The notes: generated from the sequence alone by a model not told the origin. A DNA stretch of 64,000 nucleotides from the human T2T-CHM13v2.0 reference genome, Homo sapiens (GCF_009914755.1 NC_060936.1); one strand, 5' to 3'; positions 2,553-49,730 are shown, counted from the first letter of the stretch. Numbers and translations: made by a program.

Positions 2553-3377
2553 TGTATATATATAATATATATAGTGTATATATATATTATATATAATATA
2601 TAATATATATATAATGTATATATATTATATATAATATATTATATAGCGTATATATATAATATATAATATATAATATATAGTGTATATATAGCATGTACAT
2701 AATATATAATATATAGTATATATAGCATGTATATTATATATACTATATAATATATATAGCATATATATTATATATACTATATCATATTATATATATGATA
2801 TATACTATATCATATTATATATATGATATATACTATATCATATTATATATATGATATATACTATATCATATTATATATATGATATATACTATATCATATA
2901 TAGTGTATATATATTATATAGTGTATATATATTATATAGTATATATAATATATATAGTGTATATATGATATAGTATATATCATATATGTATATATATTAT
3001 ATAGTATATATAATATAGTGTATATATAATATATTATATATAATATATTATGTATATAATATAAATATTATATATTATATAATAGTGTATATATATTGTA
3101 TATAGTAGTGTATATATATTGTATAATATATATTATATAATATAGTATATATAATATATACACATAAGTAATATATATTATATATTATATATGCATATAT
3201 ATATAATTTATATGCATATATAATATATAATATATACGCATATAATATATATTATATGCATATATATTATCTATAATATATACGCATATATAATATATAT
3301 TATATGCATATATATAATATATATATGCAAGGGGACACTACTAAGTCTTACTTATTATTACATTATATATATACACA
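2553..3377. repeat. ~820 bp imperfect (TA)n expansion with a 28-bp sub-repeat
   Basis: Nearly pure TA. Unit tatatactatatcatattatatatatga occurs ~4.6 times at 2771-2899. Confidence 0.97.
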
Positions 3378-6291: not shown

Positions 6292-6505
6292 GGACAGGTG
6301 TGGTGGCTCACACCTGTAATCCTAGCACTTTAGGGAGGGTGAGGCTGGCGGGTCACTTGAGCCCAAAAGTCCAAGACCAGACTGGGAAACATGGCAAAAC
6401 CCTGTCTCTACAGAAAATACAAAAACTTAGCCAGCTATGATCACAGCAGTGCACTCAAGCCTGAGCAACAGAGTGAGAAGAGACCCTGTCTCAAGAGAAA
6501 AAAAT
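6292..6505 (+). mobile_element. AluJ with ~100 bp deletion in the right arm
   Basis: Left arm complete, then 'ttagccagct' is joined directly to 'atgatcac...gcactc'. Confidence 0.85.
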
Positions 6506-6627
6506 TATATTATTCCTCCACCCCCACCACATTTAAAATTTTTTGTCACAGTTTGCATTTTTTATTGTCTTCCTTAACAAAATAATGTAGCTTTTATTAT
6601 TTTAATAATTTTGTCTTTTAACCTTCA

Positions 6628-6986
<359 letters not shown>

Positions 6987-6994
6987 TTACAGTT

Positions 6995-8577
6995 ACTTTT
7001 TGAATTTTATTTTACTTTAAGTTCTGGGATACATGTGCAGAACGTGCAGGTTTGTTACATAGGTATATGCATGCCATGGTGGTTTTTTGCACCTATTGAC
7101 CCATCCTCTCAGTTCCCTCCCCTTACTCCCCATCCCCCAACAGGCCCTGGTGTGTGTGTGTTGTTCCCTCCCTGTGTCCATGTGTTATCATTGTTCAGTT
7201 CCCACCTATGAGGGAGAACCTGCTGTGTTTGATTTTCTGTTCCTCTGTTAGTTTGCAGAGGATGATGGCTTCCAGCTTCATTCATGTCCCTGCAAAGGAC
7301 ATGAACTCATTCCTTTTTATGGCTGTATAGTATTCCATGGAGTATATGTACCACATTTGCTTTATCCAGTCTATCATTAATGGGCGTTTGGGTTGGTTCT
7401 ACGTCTTTGCTATTGTAAATAGTGCTGTAGTAAATATACATGTGCATGTGTCTTTATAGTAGAATTATTTATATTCCTTTTGGTATAAAGCCAGTAATGG
7501 GATTGCTGGGTCAAATGGTATTTCTGGTTCTCAATCCTAGAAGAATTGCCATACTGTCTTCCACAATGGTTGAACTAATTTACATTCCCAGCAACAGTGT
7601 AAAAGTGTTCCTATTTCTTCACAGCCCTGCCAGCATCTATTGTTTCTTGACTTTTTAATAATGGCCATTGTGACTGACATGAGATGGTATCTCACTGTGG
7701 TTTTGAATTGCATTTCTCTAATGATCAGTGATATTGAGCTTTTTTTCATATGTTTGCTGGTTGTGTAAATGTCTTGTTTCAAGAAGTGTCTGTTCATATC
7801 CTTTGCTCACTTTTTGATGGGGTTATTTTTTTCTTGTAAATTTGTTTAAGTTCCTTGTAAATTCTGGCTATTAGACTTTGTCAGTTAGGTAGATTGAAAA
7901 AATTTTCTCTCATTCTGTAGGTTGCCTGTTCATTCTGATGGTAGTTTCTTTTGCTGTGCAGAGGCTGTTTAGTTTAATTGGATCCCATTAGTTAATTTTG
8001 GCTTTTCTTGTAATGGCTTTTGGCATTTTCATCATGAAGTCTTTGTTCATGCCTATGTCCTGAATGGTATTGCCTAGGTTTTCTTCTAGGTTTTTTAAGG
8101 TTTGGGAATTTACATTTAAGCTTTTTGTCCATTTTGAGTTAATTTTTGGATAAGGTTTAAGGACTGGATCCAGTTTCAGTTTTCTGCATGTGGCTAGCCA
8201 GTTTTTCAAGCACCATTTTTGAATTGGAGATCCTTTCCCATTACTCGTTTTTGTCAGGTTTGTCAAAAATCAGATGGTTTTTGTTGTGTGTTGTTATTTC
8301 TGAGCTCTCTGTTCTGCTCCATTAGTCTATATTTCTGTTTTGGTACCAGTACCATGCTGTTTTGGTTACTGTAGCCTTATAGTATAGTTTGAAGTCAGGT
8401 AGTGTGATGCCTCTGTCTTGTTCTTTTTGCTTAGGATTGTCTTGGCTATGCAAGCTCTTTTTTGTTCTATGTGAATTTTGAAGTAGTTTTTTCTAGTTCT
8501 GTGAAGAATGTCAATGGTAGTTCGATGGGAGTAGCATTGAATCTATAAATTACTTTGGGCATTATGGCCATTTTCAT
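6995..8577 (-). mobile_element. 3' 1.6 kb of a full-length L1PA8-like element (5' part at 20623-25443, +)
   Basis: 3'UTR 'cccatcctctcagttccctcccc'. ORF2 peptides at 7537-7797 and 7988-8266. Breaks at 'ggccattttcat'. Confidence 0.9.
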
Positions 8578-8579
8578 AT

Positions 8580-8858
8580 ACATTTTCTTAATCCAGTATA
8601 TCATTGTTGGACATTTGGGTTGGTTCCAAGTCTTTGCTATTGTGAATAATGCTGCAATAAACATACGTGTGCATGTGTCTTTATAGCAGCATGATTTATA
8701 GTCCTTTGGTTATATACCCAGTAATGGGATGGCTGGGTCAAATGGTATTTCCAGTTCTAGATCCCTGAGGAATCGCCACACTGACTTCCACAATGGTTGA
8801 ACTAGTTTACAGTCCCACCAACAGTGTAAAAGTGTTCCTATTTCTCCACATCCTCTCC
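8580..8858 (-). mobile_element. 5' piece (~280 bp of ORF2 C-terminus) of a young 5'-truncated L1PA2/3-like insert
   Basis: Young diagnostics 'gtgaataatg', 'tatagtcctttgg', 'cacactgacttcc'. Differs at many sites from the neighbouring copies at 7350-7630 and 25867-26144. Confidence 0.85.
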
Positions 8859-8913
8859 TAAAACTTAAAGTACAATAAAAAATAAAAATAAAGAAATAAA
8901 AAATAGTATCATA
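8857..8913 (+). mobile_element. Displaced 3' terminus, A-tail and TSD of the L1PA4/5 at 25512-29913
   Basis: cctaaaacttaaagtacaataaaa... 8896-8914 is the exact reverse complement of 29913-29931. Confidence 0.9.
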
Positions 8914-9957
8914 ACTATATATCAATAATAACAATAGAAAATGGAATAAAAAAAGTATTTGTAATAGAAAATACAAAATTCTTAGAAATAAATCTAATAA
9001 AAATATATAAAATATATGGAGAAATGTTGAAATTAATGAACATTATCAACCTAAAAAAATGGAAATCAATGCTATGGTTCTATGTGAACAAATTTAAGGA
9101 TATCAATTTTCTCTCAAACTAATATGTAAAATTGATTCAATTCCCCTAAATTATGGTTGTTTTGTGTAAAACTTAACAAATTAAACCCAAAATTCATGTG
9201 GAGTGTCATAGAGTCAAGAATAGCTAAAATTCAAATTTTAAAGAACAAAGATCCTACGATTTACTCCACCAGATATTAAAAATTATCATAAATATTTAGT
9301 AAGTAAGACCAGAGACAAAGGGAGGAAAGATTGACAACAGGCCAATACGACAGAATAGGTAATACCCAAACAGACCTATGCATAAGTAAACTCAATTTTG
9401 ACAGAGGTATAGGAATCATAAATCAGGAAGAAATAATGGATTTGTCAAAAATATGAAAAATGGTTAACTCCATTCAAAAAATTTTTAATTATTTCACACT
9501 ACATGCAAAAATCAATTCTAGGCAGAGTTCAGACAATATCACAAACAAAATTTTAGAACTTTAAAAAAAAAAACAGAATACCTTTATGACTTAGGGTTAA
9601 GGAAGAATTTCCTAAATAAGACACAGAAAACACAAGCTGTGAAAGGAACTCTAAATAAATAACTAGATTAAAGTTTAAAACCTTTTTTCAATAGAAGACA
9701 CCATAAGAAAAGTTAAAATAAACCAATTTTTAAAAAGCTATTTTGTAGCGCACCTACATTTTAAAGGAACATTATTCAATATAGAGCAAAATAACACTTT
9801 ATAAACTCTTATTTATTAAAAATAAATAAATAGATCACCTAAAAGAGAATGAGCAAAAGATATGCAAAGAAATTTACAGAGGAGAATATTTAAATAACCA
9901 ATAAACCTAGGCAAAGATATACTCCCTCACTAGTAATCAAAGAAATGCAAATGAAAC
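8914..9957 (+). mobile_element. Ancient L1ME-like ORF2 fragment (middle piece)
   Basis: Degenerate ORF2 3' region ending 'aagaaatgcaaatgaaac'. Continues the element at 29914-30850 (-). Confidence 0.75.
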
Positions 9958-10273
9958 CAGAAAGTAAAACCCACAAAATTGTGAGGGCCCTTGATAATTG
10001 ACCCTTCTGGAGTTTCTAATCTCTCAGATTTGTCCACACTGAGCCTCCTACAATTTGTCAATTACTGTTCAGGTTTTCCTACCCCAGTATTGGTTCCTGA
10101 AGAGGTATCTGTTTATGTTAAGTTGTTATTTTGCTATTTGCCTACATCTCCAACTTCAGTGGCACTGATTTCCCTTTTAACCCCACTTCTTTTATGGATT
10201 TTTCAGTTTGTTCAGCATTTTACTTGTTAGGATGGAGTGGCAATTTCCAAGCTGGAAGCAGAAACCAGAAGCC
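9958..10273 (-). mobile_element. First ~315 bp of the L1MC 5'UTR, inverted relative to its body
   Basis: Reverse complement reads 'ggcttctggtttc..cttggaaattgccactccatcctaacaagtaaaatgctgaacaaactgaaaa...ggaggctcagtgtggacaa...gggttttactttctg'. Confidence 0.8.
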
Positions 10274-10809
10274 ATGAGTGCTTTCTTCAGACTACAGAGC
10301 TCATTATCATGGTTCTGGTGCTTTAAAAAGTTGCTTTCAAGGAGTGAACTGTCAGTCTGTCTGAAATTGCTTTTCAAAACCTAAAGTATTATTGGTGAAT
10401 CATTACAAAGAAGTAAAAGCACTATCAATGTAACACTGCAAGAGGAAAAGCCAAAGGAGAAAAGGTCTTATTTGACTAAACAGAAATCAAATGTTTTCTT
10501 TTAGGTCTTAAGACACGTGGACATGCTTTAAACTTTTCTATTTGGTTTGGACTTTGATTTACCCAGGGAAGAACTGGCAAACATATCAAAACCTATTATT
10601 TCCAATTGGCTTCTGCTTATTTATGCAGTAATTATCAAGATTATATGACAATCTGTTTTGATCATTAAGACAATCAGTGGTAACCCAGAAAGCACTGACT
10701 TTTTCAAAAGTAGATTTGTTTGATTTCCTCTCTGAGTGTTGATGTGACCTTGCTCTATAAGTTTCTGATTTCCTTAGATGGATGATCAGAAGCCTAGTTG
10801 AATATATCT

Positions 10810-11350
10810 TTTTTAAAAAATGATGAAATATTTAAACACACAGAAAGTATGCAGAATAACCAAATTATATCATGTGTCTACTTCCCAGATTTGCTTCAAA
10901 CACTTTTAAGGAAATAAAATACTTCAGATACATTTGATTCCTGTGTAAACTTTACAAATCTCACCTTTTTCTTTACTTCTCAGAGATAATCATTAGGTAT
11001 TTGTTGCTTCTGTGCACCTTTATATATTACTAGTACTTATTTGTGGACCCTCTGACAGCATGCATTGGTGCTCATATTTTTGCTATTTTAAACAACATTG
11101 CTAAAAATTTTATGTATTATTCCTATGCACATATGGGAGAATTTTTCTGGGGCGTATGTCTAGGCTGGGATATCAGTGTTGTCTTCAACTCAATTAGAAA
11201 TTGCCAAATTGCTTTTTAAAGTGTTTGTATGAATTTACAACCCAGCCAGAAGTGGATGAGCATTTCTGTTGTTCTACATCTCACATGTTTATTAATCAGA
11301 ATTTTTAATGTTTATTAATCTGATGAGTATGAAACTGCAGTATGTTGCTG
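10810..11350 (-). mobile_element. 3' piece of the L1ME-like element
   Basis: Reverse complement 'tttcatactcatcagatt...gatgtagaacaacagaaatgctcatccacttctggctgggttgtaaatt' is the L1 sequence expected directly after 9957. Confidence 0.75.
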
Positions 11351-14300
11351 TGAGCTCTACCAGGTTCTCACAGTGAATAGTGGAGGTAAATCTCCTCAGG
11401 CTTCCAGCATGGAGAGAAAAAAAGGAACCATCTTGAAATATTTCAAAGCATTCTGTTCTTAACAAAGTCTTCCCTTAGGAGAAATTATTTAATCAGAGCC
11501 TATCCTGCTGAGGTTTTGTCAGAGCCTAACTGATTTCAAAGAAAGAAAATACCCAAGTACAGCTGACTCTTGCCATCATGTACCAACTAAAATGGTGGGT
11601 TACAAACTGAGATGCTCTTGTTAGGTTCACAATCCATAGGCATAGGCTCACTAAAAGGCAGAGACCTAATCACAGGACAATAGAACACTTTCACTCCCCC
11701 CACACCTTACCAGCACATTACTAAAGTGCTACTAACAGCAGTCCATTTTACCTAGTACATTACATATGGTTATCAAGAAAGCAATTACACAGCATATAAA
11801 AAGTAAATATATAATCTGAAGAGATAGAGCAAGTATAGCAAGATAGGCCAGACTCACATATGTATGGATGTTGGAATTATACTGGGAATTTTTTTAAAAC
11901 TATGATTAATATGCTAGGGGTTATAATGGATAAAGTAGATAGCATGCAATAGACTATGGTCAGTATAAGCACAAAGACTGATATTCTAAGAAAGAACCAA
12001 ACAAGGAATACTGAGATTAAAAAATATTGTAAAGGAAATGAAGACTACCTTTAATGGGCTAATTAGTAGCCTACACACAGCTGAGGACACTGAGTTTCAG
12101 GCTATCTCAATAGAAACCTTCAAAACTGAAAAATCAAAGAGGACAAAGATTGAATAAAAACCATAACAGAATATCCAAAATCTGTTTGATAACTATGGAA
12201 GGGGTAACATGCATGTGATGAGAGTACCAGAAGGAGAAAAGAGAAAGGTATGGATAAATATTTGACACAGTAATGACTGAGAATATCCCAAATTAATGTC
12301 AGACACCAAACCACAGATCCAGCATGCTCAGTGAACATCAAGCAAAATTAATGCAAAAAACTGCACCTAGGAATATCATAATCAAATTCTAGAAAATTAA
12401 AGATAAAGAAAAATTCTTGAAAGAAGCCAGAGGGGGGAAAAATCCTACCTCTTACTTATAGAGAAGAAAGGATAAAAATTACATCTAGCTTCTTCTCAGA
12501 AACCATGCTAACAAAAAGAGAGTAGAGTGGAATATTTAAAGTCTTGAGAGGAAAAAAGAAAAACATCAACCTAGAACTTTTTTACTCTGTGAAAATATCA
12601 CTCAGAAGTGAAGGATAAATACTTTCTCAGACAAACAATAATTGAAGGGATTTGTTGCCAGCAGACCAACCTTATAATAAAGGTTAAAAGAAGTTTTTCA
12701 GAGAGAAGGAAAATGATATAGGTCAGAAAGTCAGATCTACAAAAAAAAAGGAGAAGATGACCAAAAAAGGAATAAATGAAAATAAAATATGATCTTTCAT
12801 TTTTCTTATTCTTAATTGATCTAACAAATAATTTTTCCAAAATGAGCGAAAAAATTGCATTTATTATTACAAACGCATAATAGAACAATGTATTCAATTA
12901 TGTATATATGTATGCTTATGAGTAAAATAAATGACAGCAATAAAAAAATGAGAAAAATGAGTCCATTATTTGTTATTATAAGGTATTCACACACCAATGG
13001 ACTCATAAAGTATTATTTAAAAGTGAACTTGGATTAGTTGTAAATATGTATTGCAAACTCTAGGGGAACAACTACAAAATGTTGAAAAATAATTATAACT
13101 GATATGCTAAGCAGGGAAAGAAAGGTCAACAAATAGAAAACAGCAACTAACATGGTAAATATTAAATCAATTACATCAACACTCTGAATGTCAATGATCT
13201 AAATGTATCAATTAAAAAACAGAGTTTGTCAGTGTAGGTAATAACAAAAAACCCAACTCTATATTGTCTACAAGAAACCCATTTTAAATATAGAGACACA
13301 TATATATTAAAAGTAAATGGATAGAGCAAAATATACCAGGCTAACACCAATCAAAAGAAAGGGGGAGTATCTGTATTTATTTCAGAAGAGCAGGCTTCAG
13401 AGCAAAAAAAACCATCAGTGATTAAAAATGGCCATTACATAATGATAAATGGTAAATTCTCCAAGAAGACATACCAATTCCTAACATGTATGCACCTAAC
13501 AACAAAGTGTCAAAATAAGTGAGGTAAAACTAAAAGAACTGCAAAGAAAAATAGATGAATCCACCATCATAGTTGAATACGTCAACACACTTTCATTAGA
13601 AATGAAAAGATTCATGTCCAGGTGCAGTGGCTCATGCCAGCACATTGAATGCCAAGGTGGGTGGGTCACTTGAGGTCAGAAGTTCAAGACCTCCCTGGCC
13701 AACATGGCAAAACTCTGTCTCTACTAAAAAAATACAAAAATTAGCCAGGTGTGGTGGTGGGCGCCTGTAATACCAGCTACTCAGGAAGCTGAGGCAAAAT
13801 AATGCCTTTAACCTGGGAGGTGGAGTTTGTAGTGAGCCAAGATCATGCTACTGCACTGTAGCTTGGATGACAGAGTAAGACTCTGTCAAAAAACAAAATA
13901 AAATAAAGAAGAAGAAAAAAGAAATGAACCAATTCAACAAGCAAAAATCAGTAAGCACATAATTGAACTCAACGATAACATTAATACGTTGGATTTAACA
14001 GTTATCTATAGACTACTTCACCCAACAACAGCAGAATACAGATTCTTCTCATTGTCACATGGAACATTTACCGAGATACACCACATTCTGGTACATAAAA
14101 CAACCTTAACTCATCTCAAAATATAGAAATCATGCAATATCTTCTCTTATACCACAAATAAATTAAGGTAGAAATCAATAACTAACAGATAGGTGAAACA
14201 TCCCAAAATACTTGGATGTTAAACCAAATATTTCTAAATAACACATAGGCCAAAGAAGAAATATCAACAGAAAATTTTAAAATATTTTTAATTAAGTCAA

Positions 14301-17300
14301 AATGCACTTGTTAAAATTTGTGGGATGCAGTGTAAACAGTGCTAACAGGGAAATTTATAGCATTAAATGCATGTGTTAGGAAAAAAGAAAACTATAAAAT
14401 CAATCATCTAATTTTACACCAAAAAAACTAGAAAAAGAAGAGAAAATTAAATCCAAAGGAAATGGAAGAAATCATAAAAATTAGACTAAAAAGTGAACAA
14501 AATTGAAAATAATAAGAGAAAATCAATGAGACTAAAACTTATCCTTTTAAAAGAGCAATAAAATTAATAAGCCTAAGCCAGGTTAATTAAGAAAAGAGAG
14601 AGGACACAAATTACTAATATCAGAAATGAAAGATGAGACATCACTACAGATATCATGGACATTAACAGAATAATAAAGGAATACTGTGAACAACTCTGTG
14701 CCCACAAATTATATAACCTAGTTGAAATGAATCAATTCCTTGAAAGACACAATCTGTCAAAACTCACACGAAAAGAAATAAGCAATCTGATCAGGCCTAT
14801 GTCTACTAAGGAAATTGAATCAATAATTAATAACTGTCCAAAACAGAAAACACAAAGACTAGATGGGCTTACTGTGAATTATTCCAAACATTTAAAAAAG
14901 AAATTGTAACAGCTTTCTACAATCTCTTCCAGAAGACAAAAGCAGAGGAAACACTTTCTAACTCATTCTATGGGGCCAGCATTATCCTAACACCAACACC
15001 AGACAAAGATATTACAAGAAAAGAAAACTACAGACCAATATATCTCATGAACAAAGATGCAAAAATTCTCAACAAAATATTAGTAAATCAAATCCAGCGA
15101 TGTATAAAAGGAATTATACACCATGACTAAATGGGATTTATGCCAGGTATGCAAGGCTGATTCAACATTCAAAAATAAATTAATCTAATCCATCACACCA
15201 ACAGGGTAAAGAAGAAAAGTCATATGATTATATCAGTAGATGCAGAAGAATCATTTGATAAAATATAACACCCTTTAATGATTAAAAAAAACCAACTAAA
15301 CTAGGAATAGCGGCAAACTTCCTCAACTTGATAAAGAATATTTACCAAAAAACCTGCAGGAAAATTTATACTTAAAAATGAAAACTAGAGCCTTTGTAAC
15401 TAAGATCAGAAACAAGGCAAAAAATGTCACCTGTCACCACTCCTTTTCAACATTGTGGTGGAAGTCCTAGCTAATGCAATAAAACAAGAAAAGAAATAAA
15501 ATATACATTAATTGAAAATGAAAATGTAACTGTCATTGTTGACAGATGACATGATTGTCTAATTAGAAAATTCAAAAGAATTGACTAAAAATGCCCTCCT
15601 GCAACTAATAAACAATTATAGCAAGGTTGCAGGATACAAGGTTAATATATGTCAATCGCTTTCCTATAAACCAGCAATGAACAAGTGGAATTTGAATTTA
15701 AGAACACATTACCATTTACATTAGCACCAAAATAATAAAATACTTAGGTAAACATCTAACAAAATATGTTCAAGGTCTATATGAGTAAAACTACATGATT
15801 TTCTCTAGTTGTTCCAGCACCATTTATTGAAAAAACTATCAAAAGAAGAACTAAATAAATGAAGAGATACTTCATGTTCATGGATAGAAAAACTCAATAT
15901 TGTCAAGATGTCAGTTTTTCTCAACTTAGTCTATAGACTCAATGCAACTCCAATCAAAGTCTTAGCAACTTACGTTGTGGAAACTGTTTCCATACAAACT
16001 GATTCTAAAGTTTATATAGAGAAGCTAAAGACACAAAATAGCCAGCACACTATTGAAGGACAAGAACAAAGTTAGAATACTGATACTACCCAACTTCAAG
16101 ACTTACTATAAAATTACTATAATCAGCACAGTGTGGTATTGGTGAAAGAACAGCCAAATAGTTCAATAGAACAGAATAGAGGAGCCAGAAATAATCAACT
16201 GATCTTTGACAAAGGAGAAAAGGCAATACAGCAGAGAAAAGATACTTTTTCAACAAATGGTGCTGAAACAACTAGACATCCAGATGTTAAAAAAAAAATC
16301 TGGACATAGTCCTTACATCTTCAAAAAATCAACCAAAATATATTAAAGACCTACATGTAAAACACAAAACTGTAAAATTCCTGGAATATAACATAGAAAA
16401 GAATCTAGATGCCCATGGATTTGGCAGTGACTTTTTAAATACAGCAACAAAGGGACCAAAGGGACAATCCATGAAAGAAAGAATTCATAAGCTAGATGTA
16501 ATTAAAATTAAAAATTTCTGCTCTGCAAAAAACAAAATAAAAAGACAAGCCACAGACTGAGAAAAACTATTTGTAAAAGACATATCTGATGAAGACATGA
16601 GTTATTCAAGGCATATAAATAACTCTTAAAACACAACAATAAGGAAAAGAACAACCTAATTAAAAAATGGGCCAAAGACTTTAACAAGTTTCCCACCAAA
16701 GAAGATATAATAATGACAAATAAGCATATGTAAAGAAGCTCTACATTATATATAATCAGGGAAATACAAATTAGAACAATAACAAGATAACAATGTCTAT
16801 CTATTAGAATGGCCAAAATCCAGAACACTGACAACACCAAATGCTGGAGAAGATATAAAGCAACATGAACTCTTATTTATTTCTGGTCATAATGCAGAAT
16901 GGTATGGTCAATTTAGAAGACAGATTAGTGGTTTCTTACAAAACTAAACCTACTTCTACCGTACAACCCAGCAATCCCACTCCTTGGTATTTACCCAAAG
17001 GAATTGAAAACTTACAGCCATACAAAACCTGCACATGGATGTTTATAGAAGCTTTAATTATTTATATTTGCCAAAACTTAGAAACAATCATGGTATCTTT
17101 CAGTAGGTGAGAGGATAAATAAACTAAGTGAAAGAAGACAATATGAAAAGGATACATACTGCAAAATTGCAAGTGTAAGACATTCTGGAAAAAGCAACAC
17201 TATACAGTAAATTGATCCATGGTTGCCAGAGTTTAAGGAGGACAGCAGGATGAAGAGATGAAGCACGGAAAATTGTTAGGGCAGTGAAACTGCTCTGTGT

Positions 17301-17460
17301 GACACTATAAAGGTGAGAATGTCATTACACATTTGTCCAACTCCATTGAATATACAATGCCAAGAGTGAACCTAATGTAAACTATGGACTTTGGTTGATA
17401 TATGTTGTTTATAAAGAGATATATGCTAATCAACATATTAGCATATATATATATATATTA
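11351..17460 (+). mobile_element. Near full-length L1MC (L1MC1-3-like), decayed
   Basis: 5'UTR remainder, ORF1 and ORF2 remnants (peptide 14655-14909). 3' end 'gagtgaacctaatgtaaactatggactttgg'. Confidence 0.85.
13617..13920 (+). mobile_element. AluS (Sx/Sz-like)
   Basis: Dimer with A-tail. TSD agaaatgaaaagattca / agaaatgaaccaattca. Confidence 0.9.
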
Positions 17461-17559
17461 AAACAAGAAATGGCACTTCTTGAGACAGAGGTGTTTCTTG
17501 GTGAAGACCAGTTTCATACCAAGACGTGCTATTGCATGTGACCCATTAATTTTTCAACT

Positions 17560-18155
17560 CACGGAGATCCACTGTGTCATATCACATTTTCATTCTTCCT
17601 CATGCCCTTATATCCTGACATCTCTCCTTACTCAGATCAAATTCAACAGTCATTATTATCATTCTATCAAATAGACTCTCAACAGCCTCATGTTTATATC
17701 ACTTCATCATATAATTAGAAAATCACCAACCCCAGTAAAACTCAATTTTTCATTTCTACGAAAAGTTGAATATACATATGCCTGCATCAGATGTATGTAA
17801 ATATCGCTGAAGAAAAACTCACATTTGTGCTAGCTGATTTGAATTTAAAATCATCCCCTCTGAATTTCAGTGTGCCTGCCATCCAAAATTTTTTATTCCA
17901 TTCACTCTCTTACTCTTTAAGACAACAATTTTTTGTCCCCTACTCTATTTTCTAAGGCCTCAATTACTCTTCTTAGTCTCACCTTATAATCTTGCTCATA
18001 ACCATCTTTCATAGTATTTACTTCGCACATTTATTTTGTTTACTGTCTGTATCACTAGAAACTTGGGGATTTGGGAGAGGGGTTTCTGCTGCATTCTCAG
18101 TGCCAAGAAGAATGTCTGACCTATAACATTAAACTCTAAAAATTGTATGTATGAT
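17560..18155 (+). mobile_element. L2 fragments
   Basis: Degenerate L2 3' end 'ctgcattctcagtgccaagaagaatgtctgac...' and a pyrimidine-rich body. Confidence 0.5.
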
Positions 18156-18539
18156 ATGTGTAAGAGATGCTATTTTGTAAATAGCAGTCTGCAGTATTAA
18201 AAGACTTTATTAGCTGAATAAATGATGAATTTACCATAATACAAAGTCTACTTCTTATCTTTGAAGACTCTAAAAAGTAATATTCTTTTTATGCTAAGTA
18301 ATCAACCTCCAGAAAACTGGCTTACTTTATCAAGTATATACAGGAATGAGTAACTAGTGTATCAACTTATTTGTTTATATTAAAAGGGAAGCAACAACAT
18401 TTTGTTTATGCCTGAAACTGGCATTTACGGAATAGCACCTCTTTCCCCACATGCAAAGCAACATCCACATGCAAATTATTATCTACATTGTTTGTGTTAA
18501 ATATATTTCTAGGATCCTTGGCCATAACCAATTCTGTGT

Positions 18540-19550
18540 ATGTGTAGAACAAGACTTCTAGAGACCAGCAGAAAAGAGGTCTTGGAAAGTTAAGAGATAA
18601 GCGGAGATTTCAGAGCATGTACATAGTTCCTCTCATACAGTTCTGGGGAGATATTAGAGTTAAAACCCAGTCATAGTTCAGACCCAGCCAGAATGAAGGA
18701 GTCCTTTATTAACATAAGGGACAATTCATTGAGACCTCTGAAATGTCACGCCCTAGGAGTACAGATATATCTCCAAGCATAAGGGCAATACTGAAATAAA
18801 TCCACCCTAATAAAGACTAAAACCAAAACATCAGGATCAAGGTGAACCACTGGTAATTTAATTGACTACCGAACAACGTTTAACACTCTTTTGAGAAAGA
18901 TAATATAAGCCAGGGCTCTGCAACATATTTGCAATATCCAGTATAAGTCAAAATTTACCAAACTTGTAATGAAGCAGAAGAAGAGTTAGTAGAAGTAGAC
19001 GTAAATAGTAAGCAGACAATGACTTCAAAATAACTATGGTTCAAAAATGATTAAGAAAAGTAGTGTAAAAGATGGTCAAAATGCATAAAAATGGTCCTTT
19101 TAAAAGAGAATTAAATTTTATAAGAAAGAATAAAGTGGATTTTCTAGAACCAAAAACTGTAATAATTAAGAATTCAGTAGATGGATTTAACAATAGGTCT
19201 AAGACAAAAAAAGAAAGAATGGCAAAACTCAAATTGAGATCAATAGACTATATCATTTTTGAATACAAAAAAGTTCAGAACAAAATCTAGGGTAGAAGAG
19301 ATATGTGGTATTGGTCAAAAGCTCTCATATAAGGGGAATTAAGAGAATAAAACAGAAACAATATTTAAAGGTTGAGAATTTTTTAAATATGATGAAAGAC
19401 ATGAATGCCAACATTCAAAAAGCTCAATAGAATAAGAAAATCCACACCTTGGCATATTTATTCTTACTGATAAAAATCAATAATAAAGACACAATCTTAA
19501 AAGCATTCAGAGACAAAAATTATATCAGGTAAAGGGAAAAAGCAGTAACA
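18540..19550 (+). mobile_element. Ancient L1M 5'UTR/ORF1 (5' part of the element at 1-2244)
   Basis: ORF1-like peptide 19072-19290 (IKNSVDGFNNR). Ends 'aatcttaaaagcattcagagac'. Confidence 0.65.
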
Positions 19551-20622
19551 GTCAAATTACAGCGTTATTCAAATAGACAGGCATAAACATAAGGCATCAA
19601 AAACTATTAAAAACCAAGGAGAAATAACACCAAAAAAAAAAAAAAAAAGAATGCAATAATCTCCCAGTAGCTGACCTAAAAGAAACAGAGATATACAAGC
19701 TGCCTGAAAAAGAATTCAAAGTAATTATTCTTAGGAGGCTCAGAGAACTTCAAGAAAATAGACAAAAAAAAAAAAAAAAGATATCAGGAAAACAATAAGT
19801 GACCAAAATGAAAAACAATAGACAGATTAAAATTATTTTAAAAAAGGAAATTGTGGAGCTGAAAAATATATTACATGAAATAAAAATGCAATAGAAAGAA
19901 TCAATAGCAGAATTGATTAAGCAGAAAAATGTGTGAACTTGAAAACATCTTATTTTAAAATTCACAGAGGAGAAAAAAGAAAAAAGAATGAAAAGTAATA
20001 AAAATGCTTATGAGATTTATGGACATCATGAAAACAAATATTTGAGTTATGGGAGTTAAAGGAAAGAGGTAATGGGGTAGAAAGCTTATTTTAAAAAAAA
20101 ATAAATAATAAGAGAACACTTTCCAAATCTTGGGAAAAATATGAATATTCAGATACAGAAAACTCAATGGTCTCCAATCAGATTCAGTTCAAACAGGACT
20201 ACACCAAGAAATATAATCAAACTGTCAAAAATTATAGTCAGAGAATCCTGAAAGCAGACTAGGAAAAGAATTAAGTCACATGTAAAGAAATTCTTATAAG
20301 GCTAGCAACAGACTTCTTAGCAGATATCTTACAGGTCAGAAAAATGTGGGATGATATATTCTAAGTGCTGAAGGAAAAAGTGGCAAACAGGAATACTGTA
20401 GTTGGCAAAGCTGTCATTAAGAAATGAAAATGAGATGAAGACTTTCCCAGACAAACAAAAGCTGAGGAAGTACATGGCCATCAGACTTGTCTTATAAAAA
20501 ATGTTAAAGAAGTCTCTTCAAACTAAAAGAAAAGAAAGCTAATTAGTAAAATGAAAACATGAAAGTATAAAAATCACTGGTAAAAGTATATGCACAATAA
20601 AATTTTTAAAACTCTAATACTG
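19551..20622 (+). mobile_element. L1MA ORF1 region (5' part of the element at 2245-6994)
   Basis: 'gactttcccagacaaacaaaagctgagg...gaaagtataaaaatcactggtaaaag'. Continues colinearly into the reverse complement of 6981 and leftward. Confidence 0.8.
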
Positions 20623-23600
20623 AGAAAGTGTGGGGCCAAGACAGTTGAATGGAAGCAGTGGCGATTGGAGGCTCCCATCAGAAAGAGCCATAAAAGCATG
20701 TGAATCCTGCACCAGCAACCAAAGTATTCAGGTTTTCTCATCAGAACTGAATAGGCGGCTGGCGTAATCCATGGAGAGGAAGAAAGAGCAGTGTGGTGCG
20801 GTGGCCCACTTGAAAGCCACATGGGGCAGGGGAACCCTCACCCCCCAGCCAAGGGAGGTAGTGACTGAGCATGCTACCCAGTCGAGGAAACTGTGCTTTT
20901 TCCACGGAACTGTGCAACCTGCGGATTGGAAGATCCCACTCATGAACCCATGCCATTGGGGCCTAGGGTCCCAATCCTACAGCCACGCAGATTCTCAACA
21001 GTCTCTCAGCTAGAATCTGCTTAAACCTGCTGAGTTCCCAGAGTTGCTGGGGGTGACCAGCACCACAGTCGCAGCTTTCTGCTGTCTAAGCCTTTTAAGC
21101 TCTCTGGGGGAGGAGCAGCAGCCAGCACTGGCACTGATAACTGCCTAACACACTAAGCTCCCTGGGCAGGGAATAGGCAGCAGCCATTTCTATAGCTCCA
21201 GGCCATGATTTTCCCCTGCTGGAACCAGGGAGGCTGGATAGCTTGGTCTCAAGAGGTGTCACCCACAGACAGCCCAACACACCAGCTGTGGTAGACTGTG
21301 GCCAGAGCACCTCTTCAGGCCTGACCCTGATCCATCCTTGCTCACTGGGTGGGACCTCCCTGCAGGAACTCCAACAACTCCAGCCAGAGGCTCAGGGACA
21401 CAACCTGGACCTCCCTGGGCCTGAGCTCCTAGGGGAAGGAGTGGCCACAGTCTCTGCGAATTAGGCAACTTCACCTTTCCTCCTGGTAGTTCTGAGGAAT
21501 ACAGGCAGCCCAGATGAGTGGGTTTCCCCCTAGTGAAGCACACCCCTTCCACCAAGGGACAGTCAAAGTGCTTCATTAAATGGGTCCTGTTCCCCCTGCC
21601 ACCAAACTGGGTGAAATCTTCCAACAGGGGTTGTCAGACTCCCTATAAAGGAGCAACCCTACTGGCATCAGGTTGGTGTTCCTTGAGGACAGAGATCCTA
21701 GAAGAAGGAGCAGGCACCCATCTTTGTTATTCTCCAGCCTCCTTGAGTAACATCTCCAGGCAGAGGAGCAAACCAGTTGAATAGGGCTTGAAGTGAACCC
21801 CCAGAAAACTGCAGCAGCCCTACAGAAGAGGGACCTGACCATTGAAAGAAAAGCAAACAAACAAACAGAAAGCAACAAAAACAGTATCAACAACAACAAC
21901 AAAAAGTCCCCACAAAAACCCTATCCAAGCGTCAGCAGCCTCAAAGATTGAAACTAGACAAACTCATGAAGATGGGAAAGAATGAACGAAAAAAACTGAA
22001 AATTCAAAAAGCCAGACTGCCTCTTCCTCCAAATGATCACAACACCTCTCCAGCAAGGGTACCGAACTGGATGGCAGATGAGTTGGACAAATTGACAGAA
22101 GTACACTTCATAAGATGGGTAATAAAAAACTCCACTGAGCTAAAGAAGCATATTCCAACCTAATGCAAAGAAGTTAAGAACCTTGATAAAAGGTAAGAGG
22201 ACCTGCTAACTAGAATAACCAGTTTAGAGAGGAATATAAATGAACTGAGGGAGCTGAAAAACACAGCATGTGAACTTCGTGAAGCATACACAAGTATCAA
22301 TAGCTAAATCAACCAAGTGGAAAAAAGGATATCAGAGTTTGAAGACCAAGTTGCTGAAATTAGGCATGCAAACGAGATCAGAGGAAAAAGAACGAAAATG
22401 AATGAACAAAGCTTCCGAGAAATACGGGACTATGTAAAAAGACCAAAGCTATGATTGATTGGAGTGCCTGAAGGAGACAGGAAGAATGTAAACACGCTGG
22501 AAAGCACACATCAGGATATTATCCAGGAGAACTTCCCCAACCTAGCAACGTGCAAGTTCAGGAAATAGAGAGAACACCATTAAGATACTCCACGAGAAGA
22601 TCAACCCCAACACAAATAATCATCAAATTCTCCAAGGTTGAAAGGAAGGAAAAATGTTAAGGGCAGCCAGAGAGAAAGGCCAGGTCACCTACCAAGTGAA
22701 GCCCATAAATCTAACAGTGGACCTCTCAGCACAAACCCTACAAGCCAGAAGAGATTGGGGCCAATATTCAACATTTGTAAAGAAAAGAATTTTCAACCCA
22801 GAATTTTATATCCAGCCAAACTAAGCTTCATAAGCAAAGGGGAAATAAAATCCTTTCCAGACAAGCAAATGCTGAGGAATTTCATCACCACCAGGCCTGC
22901 CTTGCAAGAGCTCCTGAAGGAAGCACTAAATATGGAAAGAAAAAAGCGGTACCAGCCACTGCAAAAACACACCAAAACATAAAGACAAATGACACTATGG
23001 AGAAACTGCATTGACTAGTGTGCAAAATCATCAGACAGCATCATGATGACAGGATCAAATTCACACATAAGAATATTAACCTTAAATGTAAATGGGCTAA
23101 ATGCCCACCAATTAACAGACTGGCAAATTGGATAAAGAGTCAAGACCCATCAGTGTGCTGTATTCAGGAGACATATCTCATGTGCAAAGACACACATAGG
23201 ATCAAAATAAAGGGATGGGGGGAAATTTACCAAGAAAATGGAAAGCAAGAAAAAAGCAGGGGTTGCAATCCTAGTCTCTGACAAAACAGACTTTCAACCA
23301 ACAAAGGTCAAAAAAAGGCAAAGAAGGGCATTACATAATGGTAAAGGGATCAATTCAACAGGAAGAGCTAACTATCCTAAATATATATGCACCCAATGCA
23401 GGAGCACGCAGATTCATAAAGCAAGTTCTTACAGACCCACAAAGAGACGTAGACTCCCACACCATAATAGTGGGGAACATTAACATCCCATTGTCAATAT
23501 TAGACAGATCAATGAGACAGAAAATTAACAAAGATATTCAAGACCTGAACTTAGCACTAGATCAAGTGGACCTAATAGACATCTACAGAACTCTCCACCC

Positions 23601-25443
23601 CAAATCAACAGAATATGCATTCTTCTCAGTGCCACATGGCATTTATTCTAAAATCGACCACATAATTGGAAGTAAAACACTCCTCAGCAAATGCAAAAGA
23701 ACTGAAATCATATAAACAGTCTCTCAGACCACAGTACAATCAAATTAGAATTCAGGATTAAGAAACTCACTCAAACCACACAGTTTTATGGAAATTGAAT
23801 AACCTGCTCCTGAATGACTCCTGGGCAAATAATGAAATTAAGGCAGAAATCAAAAAGTTCTTTGAAACCAATGAGAGCAAAGAGACAAAGTACCAGAATC
23901 ACTGGGACACAGCTAAAGCAGTGTCAAGAGGGAAATTTATAGTACTAAATGCCCACATCAGAAAGCTAGAAAGATCTCATATTGACAACCTAACATCACA
24001 ATTAAAAGAGCTAGAGAAGCAAGAGCAAACTAATTCAAAAGTCAGGAGAAGACAAGCAATACTAAGATCAGAGAGGAACTGAAGGAGATAGAGACATGAA
24101 AAACCTTCAAAAAAAATCAATGAATCCAAGAGGTGGTTTTTTGAAAAAATTAACAAAATAGACCATTAGCTAGACTAATAAAGAAGAAAAGGGAGAAGAA
24201 TCAAATAGATACAATAAAAATGATAAAGGGGATATCACCACTGACCCCACAGAAACACAAACTATCATCAGAGAAAACTATAAACACCTTTGTGCAAATA
24301 AACTAGAAAATCTAGAAGAAATAGAAAAATTCCTGGACACATACCCTTCCAAGACTAAACCAGGAAGAAGTCAAATCCCTGAATAGACCAGTAACAGGTT
24401 TTGAAATTAAGACAGTAATTAATAGCCTACCAACCAAAAAAAGCCCATGACCAGACAGATTCACAGCTGAATTCTACCAGAGGTACAAAGAGGAGCTGGT
24501 ACTATTCCCTCTGAAACTATTCCAAACAATTGAAAAGGAGAGATTCCTCCATAACTTATTTTATGAAGCCAGCTTTATCCTGATACCAAAACCTGGCAAA
24601 GATACAACTAAAGAAGAAAACTTCAGGCCAATATCCCTGTTGAACATCAATGCAAAAATTTTCAGTTAAATACTGGCAAACCGAATACAGCAGCACATCA
24701 AAAAACTTACCCACCATGATCAAGTCAGCTTCATCCCTGGGCTGGTTCAACATATGTAAATCAATAAACATAATCCATCACATAAACAGAGCCAAAGACA
24801 AAAACTACATGATTATCTCAATAGATTTAGGAAAGGTCTTTGATAAAATTCAACATCCCTTCATGTTAAAAACTCCGAATAAACTAGGTATTGATGGAAC
24901 ATATCTCAAAATAGTAAGAGCTATTTATGACAAACCCACAGTCAATATCACATTGAATGGGCAAAATCTGGAAGCAGTCCTTTTGAAAACTGGTACAAGA
25001 CAAGGATGCCCTCTCTCATTACCCCTATTCAACATAGTACTGGAATTCTGGCCAGTGCAATCGAGGCAAGAGAAAGAAATAAAGAGTATTCAAATAGGAA
25101 GAGAGGAATTCAAATTGTCTCTGTTTGCAGACAATATGATTCTATATTTAGAAAACCCCATCATCTTAGCCAAAAAACTTTTTAAGCTAATAAACAACTT
25201 CAGCAAAGTCTCAGGATACAAAATCAACGTGCAGAAATCACAAGCATTCCTTTACACCAACAATAGATGAGCAAAGAGCCAAATCATGAATGAACTCACA
25301 TTCACAATTGCTACAAAGAGAATAAAATACCTAGGAATACAGCTAACAAGGGATGTGAAGGACATCTTCAAGGAGAACAACAAACCACAGCTCAAGGAAA
25401 TAAGAGAGGACACAAACACATGAAAAAACATTCCATCCTCATG
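20623..25443 (+). mobile_element. L1PA8-like element: 5'UTR, ORF1 and most of ORF2 (disrupted)
   Basis: GC-rich 5'UTR. ORF1 peptide 22638-22982, endonuclease peptide 23338-23715, RT peptide 24650-25270 ([19 protein letters not shown]). Stops at 'ttccatcctcatg'. Confidence 0.93.
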
Positions 25444-25449
25444 TACATT

Positions 25450-25511
25450 ACATGTACCCTAAAACTTAAAGTATAATAATAATAATAATAATAATAATAC
25501 TAAAAGAAAAA
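25450..25511 (+). mobile_element. 3' terminus and (TAA)n/A tail of the young L1 whose 5' piece is at 8580-8858
   Basis: acatgtaccctaaaacttaaagtataataat... followed by TSD aagttttagg. Confidence 0.8.
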
Positions 25512-29913
<4,402 letters not shown>

Positions 29914-30850
29914 TATGATACTATTTTTTATATGTTAATAATTTATCCAGGAATTTTGCTAAATCCTCATATAAGTTTAATAGGTTTTGTGAACATTCTG
30001 TTGGATACAAAATCCAATAGAATGATATCATCAGCAAAGAAGGATAATATTGTCTTCTTTCTAATTATGCCTTTTGAAAAATAGCTTAATATTGAAGTCA
30101 CAATAGGAGGCTCTTATCTTGTTCTGATATAGTGCAAATGATTCCGAAGTTTCATCACTTTAGATGAAGGAAGAAGGAAGTTGGAAAACATTCTGTTTAA
30201 TGCTTATTTTGCTCTTATTTTGCAAATTGCTGCTTTTCTTTTTTTTAACTTCCCACACAACACTGACTAGCAAATTGCTTATATCATGAAGTCTTTTGTT
30301 TTCTGTGCTTTTATTATGTAAAAGTTGCTTTTATTATGAATGTTTACCTAAATGGATATTTTCCTTCATCTACTGCATCTCTTGAGAGATCGTATGTCTT
30401 ATCGCCTTCATTTTACTAATACAGTGAATAATATTAGACATTCTGATGTTTGGTTATCTAAGAATTCCTGGGATAAAACCTACTTACTGAAACTATTCTT
30501 TTGGGCACTGGTGATTTAGTTTCTTAGTATTTAATTTAATATCTTTGCATTTATGTTCACAAGTGAGTTGGTCCATAACTCCCTTTTCTTGGACTGTATT
30601 TGCCTGGCTTTGGCATGAAGTCAATTGTAAATTCATGAAATGAATTAGGTAGCTTTTCCAATTTTTCTATTATTTGAAACAAGTTTATGACACGGGGATT
30701 ATCCATTTATTGAAAGTTTGGTTAAAGTCATCTCTAAAGGTATCTGGGTCTGGTCTTTAGGATAAGGTGACTTTCAATTTCTTTAATTTTTTGGGGGGGT
30801 TTATTAGATTTTCTGTGTCTTCTTAAGTCATTTTGGGAAAACTATCCTTT
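29914..30850 (-). mobile_element. Ancient L1ME-like ORF2 fragment (5' piece)
   Basis: Degenerate antisense RT region 'gatatcatcagcaaa', 'tcctgggataaaacctactt', 'tctgggtctggt'. Confidence 0.7.

Positions 30851-47944: not shown

Positions 47945-49730
<1,786 letters not shown>

What the first reader, a model, noticed from the sequence alone, without database searches (positions are those of the whole stretch)
8578..25443. Cryptic ~16.9 kb inversion, shown by three inverted TSDs and six split L1 elements
Seen in sequence: (1) The + L1PA8-like element (20623-25443) stops at 'ccatcctcatg' and resumes on - at 8577 ('atgaaaatggcc'). Only 19 nt are missing compared with the same stretch of the L1PA4/5 copy near 27100-27119. 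Its TSD is inverted: aactctaatactg (20610-20622) vs reverse complement of 6982-6994 (12/13 match). (2) The - L1PA4/5 (25512-29913) has no tail. Its terminus, tail and TSD sit on + at 8857-8914, and 8896-8914 is the exact reverse complement of 29913-29931. (3) The young L1 is split (8580-8858 -, 25450-25511 +) with inverted TSD aagttttagg. (4) Older hosts also rejoin: L1MA 20622 to 6981, L1M ~19550 to 2244, L1ME 29914 to 8914. Chimeric ORFs 8467-8664 (..[17 protein letters not shown]2 parts out of order) and 8710-8976 cross the left inversion junction and the young L1's 5' insertion junction, respectively. Inference: one breakpoint cuts an L1PA2/3-like copy, so the event should be ape-specific and may be human-specific or polymorphic. 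The breaks are at non-homologous L1 positions, so this is end joining or template switching rather than L1-L1 homologous recombination.
Basis: partly seen in the sequence, partly recalled or inferred. Interest (0 to 1): 0.92.

Follow-up and report, generated by a model that had tools for sequence, protein, structure and literature searches.

The report
Derived 16.9 kb inversion splitting nested L1s
A 16.9 kb stretch of gene-free human chromosome 12 was flipped at some point after a young L1 element landed there, leaving several L1 elements cut in two with their flanking duplications pointing the wrong way; it is a real but ordinary kind of rearrangement.

Summary
Window 8578-25443 (16,866 bp) is inverted relative to the order in which the local repeats were inserted.

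- **Inverted TSD pairs:** three pairs sit exactly at the predicted element ends (12/13, 19/19, 10/10). Random position pairs almost never reach these scores.
- **Old L1:** the two halves lie on one strand in 24 of 25 intact genomic relatives, with 19 bases between them in 22.
- **Young L1:** a 5'-truncated copy is split, and about 335 nt of it is missing.
- **Host L1s:** two hosts rejoin after in-silico re-inversion. A third has only a weak candidate TSD (15/19).
- **Breakpoints:** they lie at non-homologous L1 positions and carry 2-nt and 6-nt fillers.

Best reading: a canonical young L1 insertion came first. A later non-homologous two-break inversion with small deletions followed. The break may have been provoked by the L1/L1 quasi-palindrome that the insertion created.

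A rival is that L1 integration itself caused the inversion (about 0.12).

I could not test orientation in apes, polymorphism in humans or catalogue status. No outgroup genomes were available and supplementary tables were closed. No gene is affected. Interest is modest.

The parts
8578..25443 (.). The inverted segment (16,866 bp), derived orientation
   Evidence: Re-inverting it in silico restores five split L1 elements and turns three inverted TSD pairs into direct ones.
6982..6994 (-). TSD of the older (PA8-like) L1, tail side, in reverse complement
   Evidence: 12/13 match to 20610-20622.
6995..8577 (-). 3' part of the older full-length L1
   Evidence: Aligns to reference-copy positions 2814-4402. 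It abuts the 5' part in intact relatives.
8578..8579 (.). Left junction filler (AT; 1-2 nt)
   Evidence: Matches neither partner. It lies between two copies of the 7-mer CATTTTC at 8569-8575 and 8581-8587.
8580..8858 (-). 5' piece of the young, 5'-truncated L1
   Evidence: Reference positions 3770-4048. Identity is 92.8% to the neighbouring copy, 85.8% to the older L1 and 98.2-98.9% to its 11 best genomic relatives.
8857..8895 (+). Terminal bases and A-rich tail of the middle-aged (PA4/5-like) L1; 8857-8866 is the young L1's TSD in reverse complement
8896..8914 (+). TSD of the middle-aged L1, tail side
   Evidence: 19/19 match to the reverse complement of 29913-29931.
8915..9400 (+). Part of the old L1ME-like host, now inside the inverted segment
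   Evidence: One ungapped tblastx match (query 350-646, E 4.9e-6) runs through the rejoined junction with a single TSD copy kept.
19537..19555 (+). Candidate TSD of the L1MA-like host (weak)
   Evidence: 15/19 match to the reverse complement of 2226-2244. 23 of 5000 random 19-mers do as well in that search span.
19556..20609 (+). 5' part of the L1MA-like host of the older L1
   Evidence: In 9 of 11 intact genomic copies it is directly followed, on the same strand, by the reverse complement of 6495-6654.
20610..20622 (+). TSD of the older L1, 5' side
20623..25443 (+). 5' part of the older full-length L1
   Evidence: The two parts together make 6404 nt.
25444..25449 (.). Right junction filler (TACATT)
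   Evidence: Matches neither partner. Together with the flank it makes CATGTAC twice.
25450..25511 (+). Last ~28 nt of the young L1 plus its (AAT)n/A-rich tail
25512..25521 (+). TSD of the young L1 (AAGTTTTAGG)
25512..29913 (-). Body of the middle-aged L1 (5'-truncated, now without its tail)
29913..29931 (-). TSD of the middle-aged L1, 5' side, in reverse complement
2245..6981 (-). 3' part of the L1MA-like host, interrupted by two Alus
   Evidence: tblastx map: reference positions 6178 to 3179 on the - strand. Flank adjacency in intact copies.

Best explanation
The arrangement in this assembly is derived, through the following steps.

1. **Ancestral state.** An old full-length L1 lay on the - strand inside an L1MA-like host. 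About 10 kb to its right, a middle-aged 5'-truncated L1 lay on the - strand inside an L1ME-like host.
2. **Young L1 insertion.** A young L1 then inserted by ordinary target-primed reverse transcription into the very 3' terminus of the middle-aged L1, in the opposite orientation. It was about 630 nt plus tail, with a 10-bp TSD. This created a quasi-palindrome with arms of about 630 bp and a spacer of about 44 nt.
3. **Breaks and rejoining.** Later, two double-strand breaks occurred, one in the young L1 and one in ORF2 of the old L1. The 16.9 kb between them was rejoined in reverse by end joining.
4. **Net changes.** 19 nt were lost from the old L1 and about 335 nt from the young one. 2 nt and 6 nt of filler were gained.

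**Shown:** the inverted state, the break positions, the losses and the fillers.

**Inferred:** the order of insertion and inversion, end joining rather than replicative switching, and the quasi-palindrome as the cause of one break.
For: **The inverted state**
- Three inverted TSD pairs sit exactly at element ends. They are far beyond the random control.
- The two halves of the old L1 are one element minus 19 nt: 24 of 25 intact relatives are colinear and 22 have exactly 19 bases between the halves.
- Unbiased identities of the two halves to relatives are similar. By my arithmetic from the rows they are about 86.6% and 84.4%. The relatives themselves differ equally in the two regions (88.5% and 88.9%).
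- Two hosts rejoin.

**Canonical insertion of the young L1**
- It has a canonical 5' junction: sense L1 next to the TSD, with a 2-nt overlap.
- It has a canonical 3' junction: tail next to the TSD.
- The target reads ...CTT|AAAG, close to the TT/AAAA cleavage motif quoted in PMC13526784.
- This is most simply one completed insertion that was broken later.

**Non-homologous joining**
- The breaks are out of register by more than 1.2 kb in L1 coordinates.
- Small deletions plus short fillers match the non-homologous class described in PMC6748972 (passages).

**Quasi-palindrome**
- An 18-nt perfect remnant of the inverted repeat with a 44-nt spacer is still present.
- Lee et al. discuss close inverted L1/Alu pairs as break-prone (PMC2603318, section 11).
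Against: - Nothing in one genome shows that the un-inverted allele carrying an intact young L1 ever existed. The order of events therefore rests on parsimony.
- The loss of about 335 nt at one break against 19 nt at the other is lopsided.
- Both junctions carry a 7-nt direct repeat around the filler. At the left junction, 220 of 20,000 simulated joins reach 7 nt or more. This fits templated or replicative joining as well as plain end joining.
- The break in the young L1 is not at the centre of the quasi-palindrome.
- Assembly error was not excluded with reads.
Confidence: 0.58

Rival explanations
1. Insertion and inversion were one event. The staggered break made by L1 ORF2p at the target site did not reseal locally. 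The tail-primed end carried only about 28 nt of L1 plus the tail and joined one end of a second break in the old L1. The other end of that second break was extended by reverse transcription from an internal site of the L1 RNA (positions 4048 down to 3770). It then joined the reciprocal target end.
For: **Defining features met.** The three features that the bioRxiv paper 10.1101/2024.12.14.628481 uses for ORF2p-induced rearrangements are all present (section 14):
- a polyadenylated insert at a rearrangement junction (25450-25511);
- an endonuclease-like target;
- a TSD-like 10-bp overlap between the primary and reciprocal breakpoints.

**Precedent.** That paper and PMC13526784 report inversions and exchanges with L1-independent breaks. 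They also report ends extended by reverse transcription without poly-A (passages).

**Orientation.** On the + strand the piece 8580-8858 reads antisense away from the old-L1 end. That is what extension of that 3' end would give.

**Coincidence removed.** This model explains why a break lies in the youngest element of the region.
Against: - The same three features follow from any ordinary insertion.
- The reciprocal target end carries sense L1 through a canonical 5' junction. This is not the antisense piece expected from twin priming at that end.
- There is no complementarity between the old-L1 end and the L1 sequence next to position 4048. The junction has filler instead.
- The model needs two separate short cDNAs with a gap of about 335 nt and an independent simultaneous break 16.9 kb away.
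- The papers describe cancers and cell models. 'Germline' occurs 0 times in PMC13526784 and once, in the methods, in the preprint.
Confidence: 0.12
2. The inversion arose after the young L1 had inserted, but by replicative template switching (FoSTeS/MMBIR type) rather than by joining two breaks. A fork stalled at the L1/L1 quasi-palindrome and the nascent strand switched twice using short homologies.
For: - There are short fillers at both junctions.
- Each junction has a 7-nt direct repeat: CATTTTC at 8569-8575 and 8581-8587, and CATGTAC made partly by the filler at 25441-25457.
- The left repeat is reached by 220 of 20,000 simulated joins.
Against: - No duplicated or triplicated segment lies at either breakpoint. 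There are only losses.
- Both copies of each 7-mer are kept, whereas a simple microhomology switch would leave one.
- The right-hand repeat was noticed after the fact.
Confidence: 0.18
3. Homologous recombination between inverted L1 copies (L1-RMI in the sense of Lee et al. 2008) produced the inversion.
For: In the restored order the old L1 (-) and the young L1 (+) span the two breakpoints in opposite orientation. This is the operational criterion in PMC2603318 (section 4).
Against: - The breaks lie at positions 2795/2814 and 4048/4385 of the same reference copy, so they are not in register.
- The two L1s are only 85.8% identical where they overlap.
- Fillers and deletions are present at both junctions.
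Confidence: 0.03
4. The inversion is an assembly artefact, or the pattern is chance.
For: No reads were available to me, so junction support was not checked.
Against: - The two junctions do not lie in near-identical repeats that could be swapped.
- Each junction has its own filler and its own loss.
- The interior is single-copy in the genome. For 8900-9900 only the self match is long, and the other 14 matches are 44-149 nt.
- Chance is excluded by the controls.
Confidence: 0.02

Closest known systems
Non-homologous (NH) human inversions with small indels at the breakpoints (Giner-Delgado et al. 2019, PMC6748972; passages seen)
   Same: There are no in-register inverted repeats at the breaks. 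The derived allele carries small deletions and insertions. The size lies within their range of 83 bp to 415 kb. It is expected to have a single origin.
   Different: Population status is unknown here. Their supplementary list could not be opened, so I cannot say whether this locus is one of theirs. 'chr12', '12p11' and 'chromosome 12' each occur 0 times in their main text.
L1/Alu-associated inversions between human and chimpanzee (Lee et al. 2008, PMC2603318; sections 4 part 1 and 11 read)
   Same: L1 elements span both breakpoints in opposite orientation. The size is close to their mean of 14.3 kb for human-specific L1-RMI. A deletion accompanies the inversion, as in 75 of their 252 loci.
   Different: The recombined L1s here are not joined at homologous positions. 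It works like their 'L1 as fragile site plus break repair' case rather than like recombination.
Rearrangements from L1 ORF2p-induced break ends (bioRxiv 10.1101/2024.12.14.628481, passages and section 14; PMC13526784, passages)
   Same: A polyadenylated L1 piece sits at a rearrangement junction. There is an endonuclease-like target and a TSD-like overlap of the two target-site breakpoints. L1 pieces in opposite orientation lie at the two junctions.
   Different: Those are somatic or experimental events. Here the reciprocal end has a canonical sense 5' junction, so a completed insertion that broke later explains the data more simply.
Twin-priming 5' inversion of an L1 insert (recalled as Ostertag and Kazazian 2001; seen here only as cited)
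   Same: An inverted upstream L1 piece and a sense, polyadenylated downstream piece, with a gap between them.
   Different: 16.6 kb of unrelated, older DNA lies between the two pieces. The TSDs are inverted. The inverted piece is attached to its flank by its low-numbered end rather than its high-numbered end.

Membership tests
Chromosomal inversion (derived state inferred from repeat nesting) | Elements split between the two junctions rejoin, colinear and on one strand, when the segment is re-inverted | tested here: met
   Old L1: 24 of 25 intact relatives colinear. Middle-aged L1 tail and young L1. L1ME-like host. L1MA-like host: 9 of 11. Third host unresolved.
Chromosomal inversion (derived state inferred from repeat nesting) | TSDs of the split elements are inverted now and become direct after re-inversion | tested here: met
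   12/13, 19/19 and 10/10. Random control: 2, 0 and 1 of 200,000.
Chromosomal inversion (derived state inferred from repeat nesting) | Outgroup genomes show the opposite orientation | not testable with these tools
   The genome tool holds no relatives of this assembly.
Non-homologous inversion (NH class) | No in-register homologous inverted repeats at the breakpoints | tested here: met
   Breaks at 2795/2814 and 4048/4385 in one coordinate system.
Non-homologous inversion (NH class) | [quoted passage not shown] | tested here: met
   19 nt lost (22 of 25 relatives). About 335 nt lost: 328-335 in 6 of 11 relatives, 1288-1289 in 2, and anchor not found in 3. Fillers of 2 nt and 6 nt.
L1 recombination-mediated inversion (L1-RMI) | Two L1s in opposite orientation span the two breakpoints | tested here: met
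   In the restored order the old L1 is on the - strand and the young L1 on the + strand.
L1 recombination-mediated inversion (L1-RMI) | Chimeric elements joined at homologous positions | tested here: not met
   The junctions join position 2814 to 4048 and 2795 to 4385.
L1 ORF2p-induced break-end recombination | Polyadenylated insert at a rearrangement junction | tested here: met
   25450-25511 lies between the old L1 end and the TSD.
L1 ORF2p-induced break-end recombination | Endonuclease target at the site | tested here: met
   ...CTT|AAAG compared with TT/AAAA. Partial match.
L1 ORF2p-induced break-end recombination | TSD-like overlap of the primary and reciprocal breakpoints | tested here: met
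   10 bp. This is equally expected from an ordinary insertion.
L1 ORF2p-induced break-end recombination | The rearrangement formed in the same event as the insertion (no intact insertion allele ever existed) | not testable with these tools
   This needs ape and human haplotypes. The canonical sense 5' junction argues mildly against it.
Twin-priming L1 inversion | Inverted and sense L1 pieces adjacent, within one pair of direct TSDs | tested here: not met
   The pieces are 16.6 kb apart and the TSDs are inverted.
Canonical TPRT L1 insertion (the young L1 before it was broken) | 5' truncation, A-rich tail, short TSD, endonuclease-like target | tested here: met

The most novel reading that the evidence does not exclude
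The young L1 never existed here as an intact insert. Its retrotransposition intermediate recombined with a second break 16.9 kb away and flipped the segment in one step. This would be a germline, evolutionarily retained example of the L1-induced inversions so far documented in cancers and cell models. A softer variant is that the insertion completed, and the L1-into-L1 quasi-palindrome it created is what later broke the chromosome.
Probability: 0.12. Interest if true: 0.6.

Novelty: new member of a known kind. Interest (0 to 1): 0.3.

Why it matters
- **Function.** No gene or annotated element is touched, so a functional effect is unlikely.
- **As an example.** It is a clean, base-resolved case of a non-homologous inversion. 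It can be called, polarised and roughly dated from a single genome by repeat nesting and inverted TSDs.
- **As a test locus.** It offers a simple test of whether L1 integration itself, or the palindrome that an L1-into-L1 insertion creates, can cause heritable inversions.
- **As a marker.** If it proves polymorphic or human-specific it would be a useful single-origin marker.
- **Caveat.** Inversions over 10 kb between human and six apes have been curated from complete genomes: 1,140 events (PMC12058530, passage seen). If this event differs among those species it is probably already listed there.

Tried and rejected
Table S1 of PMC2603318, Supplementary Data 1 of PMC6748972 and Supplementary Table XII.67 of PMC12058530 could not be checked for this locus.

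**Literature searches for a described inversion here**
- 'inversion' + 'CCDC91': 15 papers, none about this locus by title or abstract.
- '12p11.22' + 'inversion' + 'polymorphic': 1 paper, unrelated.
- These searches cover main texts only, so they do not show that the event is unpublished.

**Third host element (19550/2244)**
- No tblastx match crosses the rejoined junction.
- 0 of 9 genomic loci were informative.
- The genome search with the other flank found only itself.
- A protein-level local alignment was no better than shuffles: 41 of 200 shuffles reached the observed score.
- My first coordinates for its candidate TSD were wrong and were corrected.

**Other checks**
- Subfamily typing was not possible without a repeat library. 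I used only relative identities.
- Priming complementarity between the old-L1 end and the young L1 next to position 4048 was looked for by eye in the outputs. None was found.
- An exact-pattern search for other L1 tail-to-tail inverted pairs with a 25-55 nt spacer found only this locus. That is too narrow a pattern to say anything about instability genome-wide.
- Twin priming, homologous L1-L1 recombination and chance were considered and rejected, as set out under the rivals.


Full report
**What was checked first.** I read both claimed junctions and the three claimed TSD sites and compared them by script.
- 20610-20622 matches the reverse complement of 6982-6994 at 12 of 13 positions.
- 8896-8914 matches the reverse complement of 29913-29931 at 19 of 19.
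- The 10-mer AAGTTTTAGG lies at 25512-25521 and, reverse-complemented, at 8857-8866.
- As a control I drew 200,000 random pairs of window positions. One reached 10/10, two reached 12/13 or better and none reached 19/19.
- The real matches were not searched for. They sit exactly where the ends of the split elements predict them.

**The older L1.** I used the neighbouring L1 copy (reverse complement of 25512-29913, 4402 nt) as a ruler.
- The + strand piece 22650-25443 covers ruler positions 1-2795. The - strand piece 8578-7019 covers 2814-4402.
- An alignment across the two pieces placed end to end shows a single 19-nt gap. The two parts together make 6404 nt.
- The assembly itself is searchable, so I fetched intact relatives. 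13 were chosen by the 594 nt upstream of the break and 13 by the 594 nt downstream.
- 25 of these 26 loci carry both flanks. In 24 the longest matches lie on one strand, with 19 bases between them in 22, 18 in one and 27 in one. The odd locus, L043, showed the same 19-base spacing with a shorter match.
I could not name subfamilies, so I compared unbiased identities. The upstream half is about 86.6% identical to copies chosen by the downstream half. The downstream half is about 84.4% identical to copies chosen by the upstream half (my arithmetic rows with matches over 500 nt, 10 loci each).
- The relatives differ from each other equally in the two regions, 88.5% and 88.9% over 190 pairs. I see no sign of two different elements.

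**The middle-aged and young L1s.**
- The - strand L1 at 25512-29913 ends without its last bases and tail. These lie on the + strand at 8857-8895, followed by the 19-nt TSD.
- Between the two sits a younger L1. 8858-8580 (- strand) covers ruler positions 3770-4048. 25450-25511 (+ strand) holds the last ~28 nt plus an (AAT)n/A-rich tail.
- The 279-nt piece is 92.8% identical to the ruler copy, 85.8% to the older L1 and 96.8% to another copy at about 47977-48993.
- Against the genome, 40 of 1221 candidates were scored. The 11 best non-self copies are 98.2-98.9% identical to it.
- It differs from their commonest base at 3 of 279 positions. Those copies were picked for similarity, so this is a lower bound on its divergence.
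- At a recalled neutral rate of roughly 0.1-0.2% per million years, this suggests an insertion within the last ten million years or so. The Poisson range is wide, reaching perhaps 15-20 million years.
In intact relatives 328-335 bases lie between them in 6 of 11 copies. Two copies gave 1288-1289, and in three the exact 18-mer anchor was not found.

**The hosts.**
- L1ME-like host: I joined the reverse complement of 29932-30400 to 8896-9400 with one TSD copy kept. This gives one ungapped tblastx match to the older L1 (query 350-646, E 4.9e-6). The match runs straight through the junction at 469-488.
- L1MA-like host: 20150-20622 (+) is directly followed, on the same strand, by the reverse complement of 6495-6654 in 9 of 11 intact genomic copies. 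The reverse complement of 5990-6289 follows further on in 11 of 11, one of them only a 25-nt match.
- Third, oldest host (19550/2244): I found only a candidate inverted TSD of 15/19 (19537-19555 against the reverse complement of 2226-2244). 23 of 5000 random 19-mers do as well in that 160-nt span. Every other attempt failed.
- So five of the six split elements are verified and one is unresolved.

**The junctions.**
- Left: the older L1 ends at 8577, AT follows at 8578-8579 (one of these bases may be native), and the young L1 starts at 8580.
- Right: the older L1 ends at 25443, TACATT follows at 25444-25449, and the young L1 terminus starts at 25450.
- Both junctions carry a 7-nt direct repeat around the filler. 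CATTTTC is native to both partners on the left. CATGTAC on the right is made partly by the filler.
- In 20,000 simulated joins between the same two kinds of L1 sequence, 220 had a shared 7-mer or longer within 15 nt on each side. I noticed this after the fact, and it does not separate templated end joining from replicative switching.

**Reconstruction.** Re-inverting 8578-25443 gives a fully nested, same-strand picture.
- On the left, the oldest host contains the L1MA-like element, which contains the older L1. All three lie on the - strand.
- On the right, the L1ME-like host contains the middle-aged L1, both on the - strand. The young L1 lies on the + strand inside the 3' terminus of the middle-aged L1.
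- The present order is therefore the derived one.
- In the restored order the young L1 and its host L1 faced each other tail to tail. The arms covered ruler positions 3770-4402 (about 630 bp). They were about 93% identical over the 279 nt that survive. The spacer was about 44 nt.
- An 18-nt perfect remnant of that inverted repeat is still there at 25450-25467 and 25512-25529.
- Lee et al. discuss close inverted L1/Alu pairs as break-prone (PMC2603318, section 11). I infer, but cannot show, that this structure caused the break in the young L1.

**Mechanism and rivals.**
- The break positions are out of register by more than 1.2 kb, so homologous L1-L1 recombination is out. This holds even though the locus meets the operational L1-RMI criterion of Lee et al., two opposite L1s spanning the breakpoints.
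- Small deletions with short fillers match the non-homologous class of human inversions (PMC6748972).
- The most interesting rival comes from two recent papers. They show that break ends made by L1 ORF2p during integration can recombine with other breaks and give inversions (bioRxiv 10.1101/2024.12.14.628481; PMC13526784).
- Their three defining features are all present here: a polyadenylated insert at a junction, an endonuclease-like target, and a TSD-like overlap. But the same features follow from any ordinary insertion.
- Against the coupled model, the reciprocal target end carries sense L1 through a canonical 5' junction. The model would need a second cDNA primed from the distant break without visible complementarity, a very short first cDNA, and a gap of about 335 nt.
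- My weighing: sequential break-and-join about 0.58, replicative switching after insertion about 0.18, coupled insertion-inversion about 0.12, homologous recombination about 0.03, and artefact about 0.02.
- Assembly error is unlikely by inference. The two junctions do not lie in near-identical repeats, and the interior is single-copy. However, I had no reads.

**What remains open.**
- I could not compare any other primate or human haplotype. The claims 'ape-specific', 'human-specific' and 'polymorphic' are therefore untested.
- Two main-text literature searches found no description of an inversion at this locus.
- The complete ape genome paper curated 1,140 interspecific inversions over 10 kb (PMC12058530). 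If this 16.9 kb event differs among those species it is probably listed there.

**Verdict.**
- It is a new, well-resolved member of a known kind. It lies in a gene-free interval and has no evident functional consequence.
- Its main value is as a test locus for whether L1 integration, or an L1-into-L1 palindrome, can cause a heritable inversion.

Noticed in passing
window 25450-25529: A perfect 18-nt inverted repeat with a 44-nt A-rich spacer, formed by two L1 3' termini tail to tail. An exact-pattern search with a 25-55 nt spacer found this configuration only here in the whole assembly.
   Followed up: partly
window 12354-17009 (+): Another old L1 lies wholly inside the inverted segment. It covers reference positions about 1973-5931 of the older L1. 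It is not split and is distinct from the hosts at the breakpoints.
   Followed up: no
window 6655-6973 and about 6290-6494: A full Alu with an approximately 15-nt TSD (6640-6654 against 6959-6973, about 12/15 by eye) and a partial Alu. Both interrupt the L1MA-like host just outside the left breakpoint.
   Followed up: no
window about 6105-6111: The L1MA-like host appears to lack about 750-900 nt relative to intact genomic copies. In 4 of 11 loci the match jumps by that much.
   Followed up: no
window 47977-48993 (-): A separate 5'-truncated young L1 3' end, 96.8% identical to the split young L1 over the shared 279 nt.
   Followed up: partly
window 8467-8664 (-) and 8710-8976 (-): Two short chimeric ORFs (65 and 88 aa) run across the left inversion junction and the young L1's 5' junction. 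They are stitched from out-of-order L1 ORF2 fragments and tail sequence, with no sign of being genes.
   Followed up: yes
window 19620-19650: An internal run of about 19 A lies within the 5' region of the L1MA-like host. Origin not examined.
   Followed up: no
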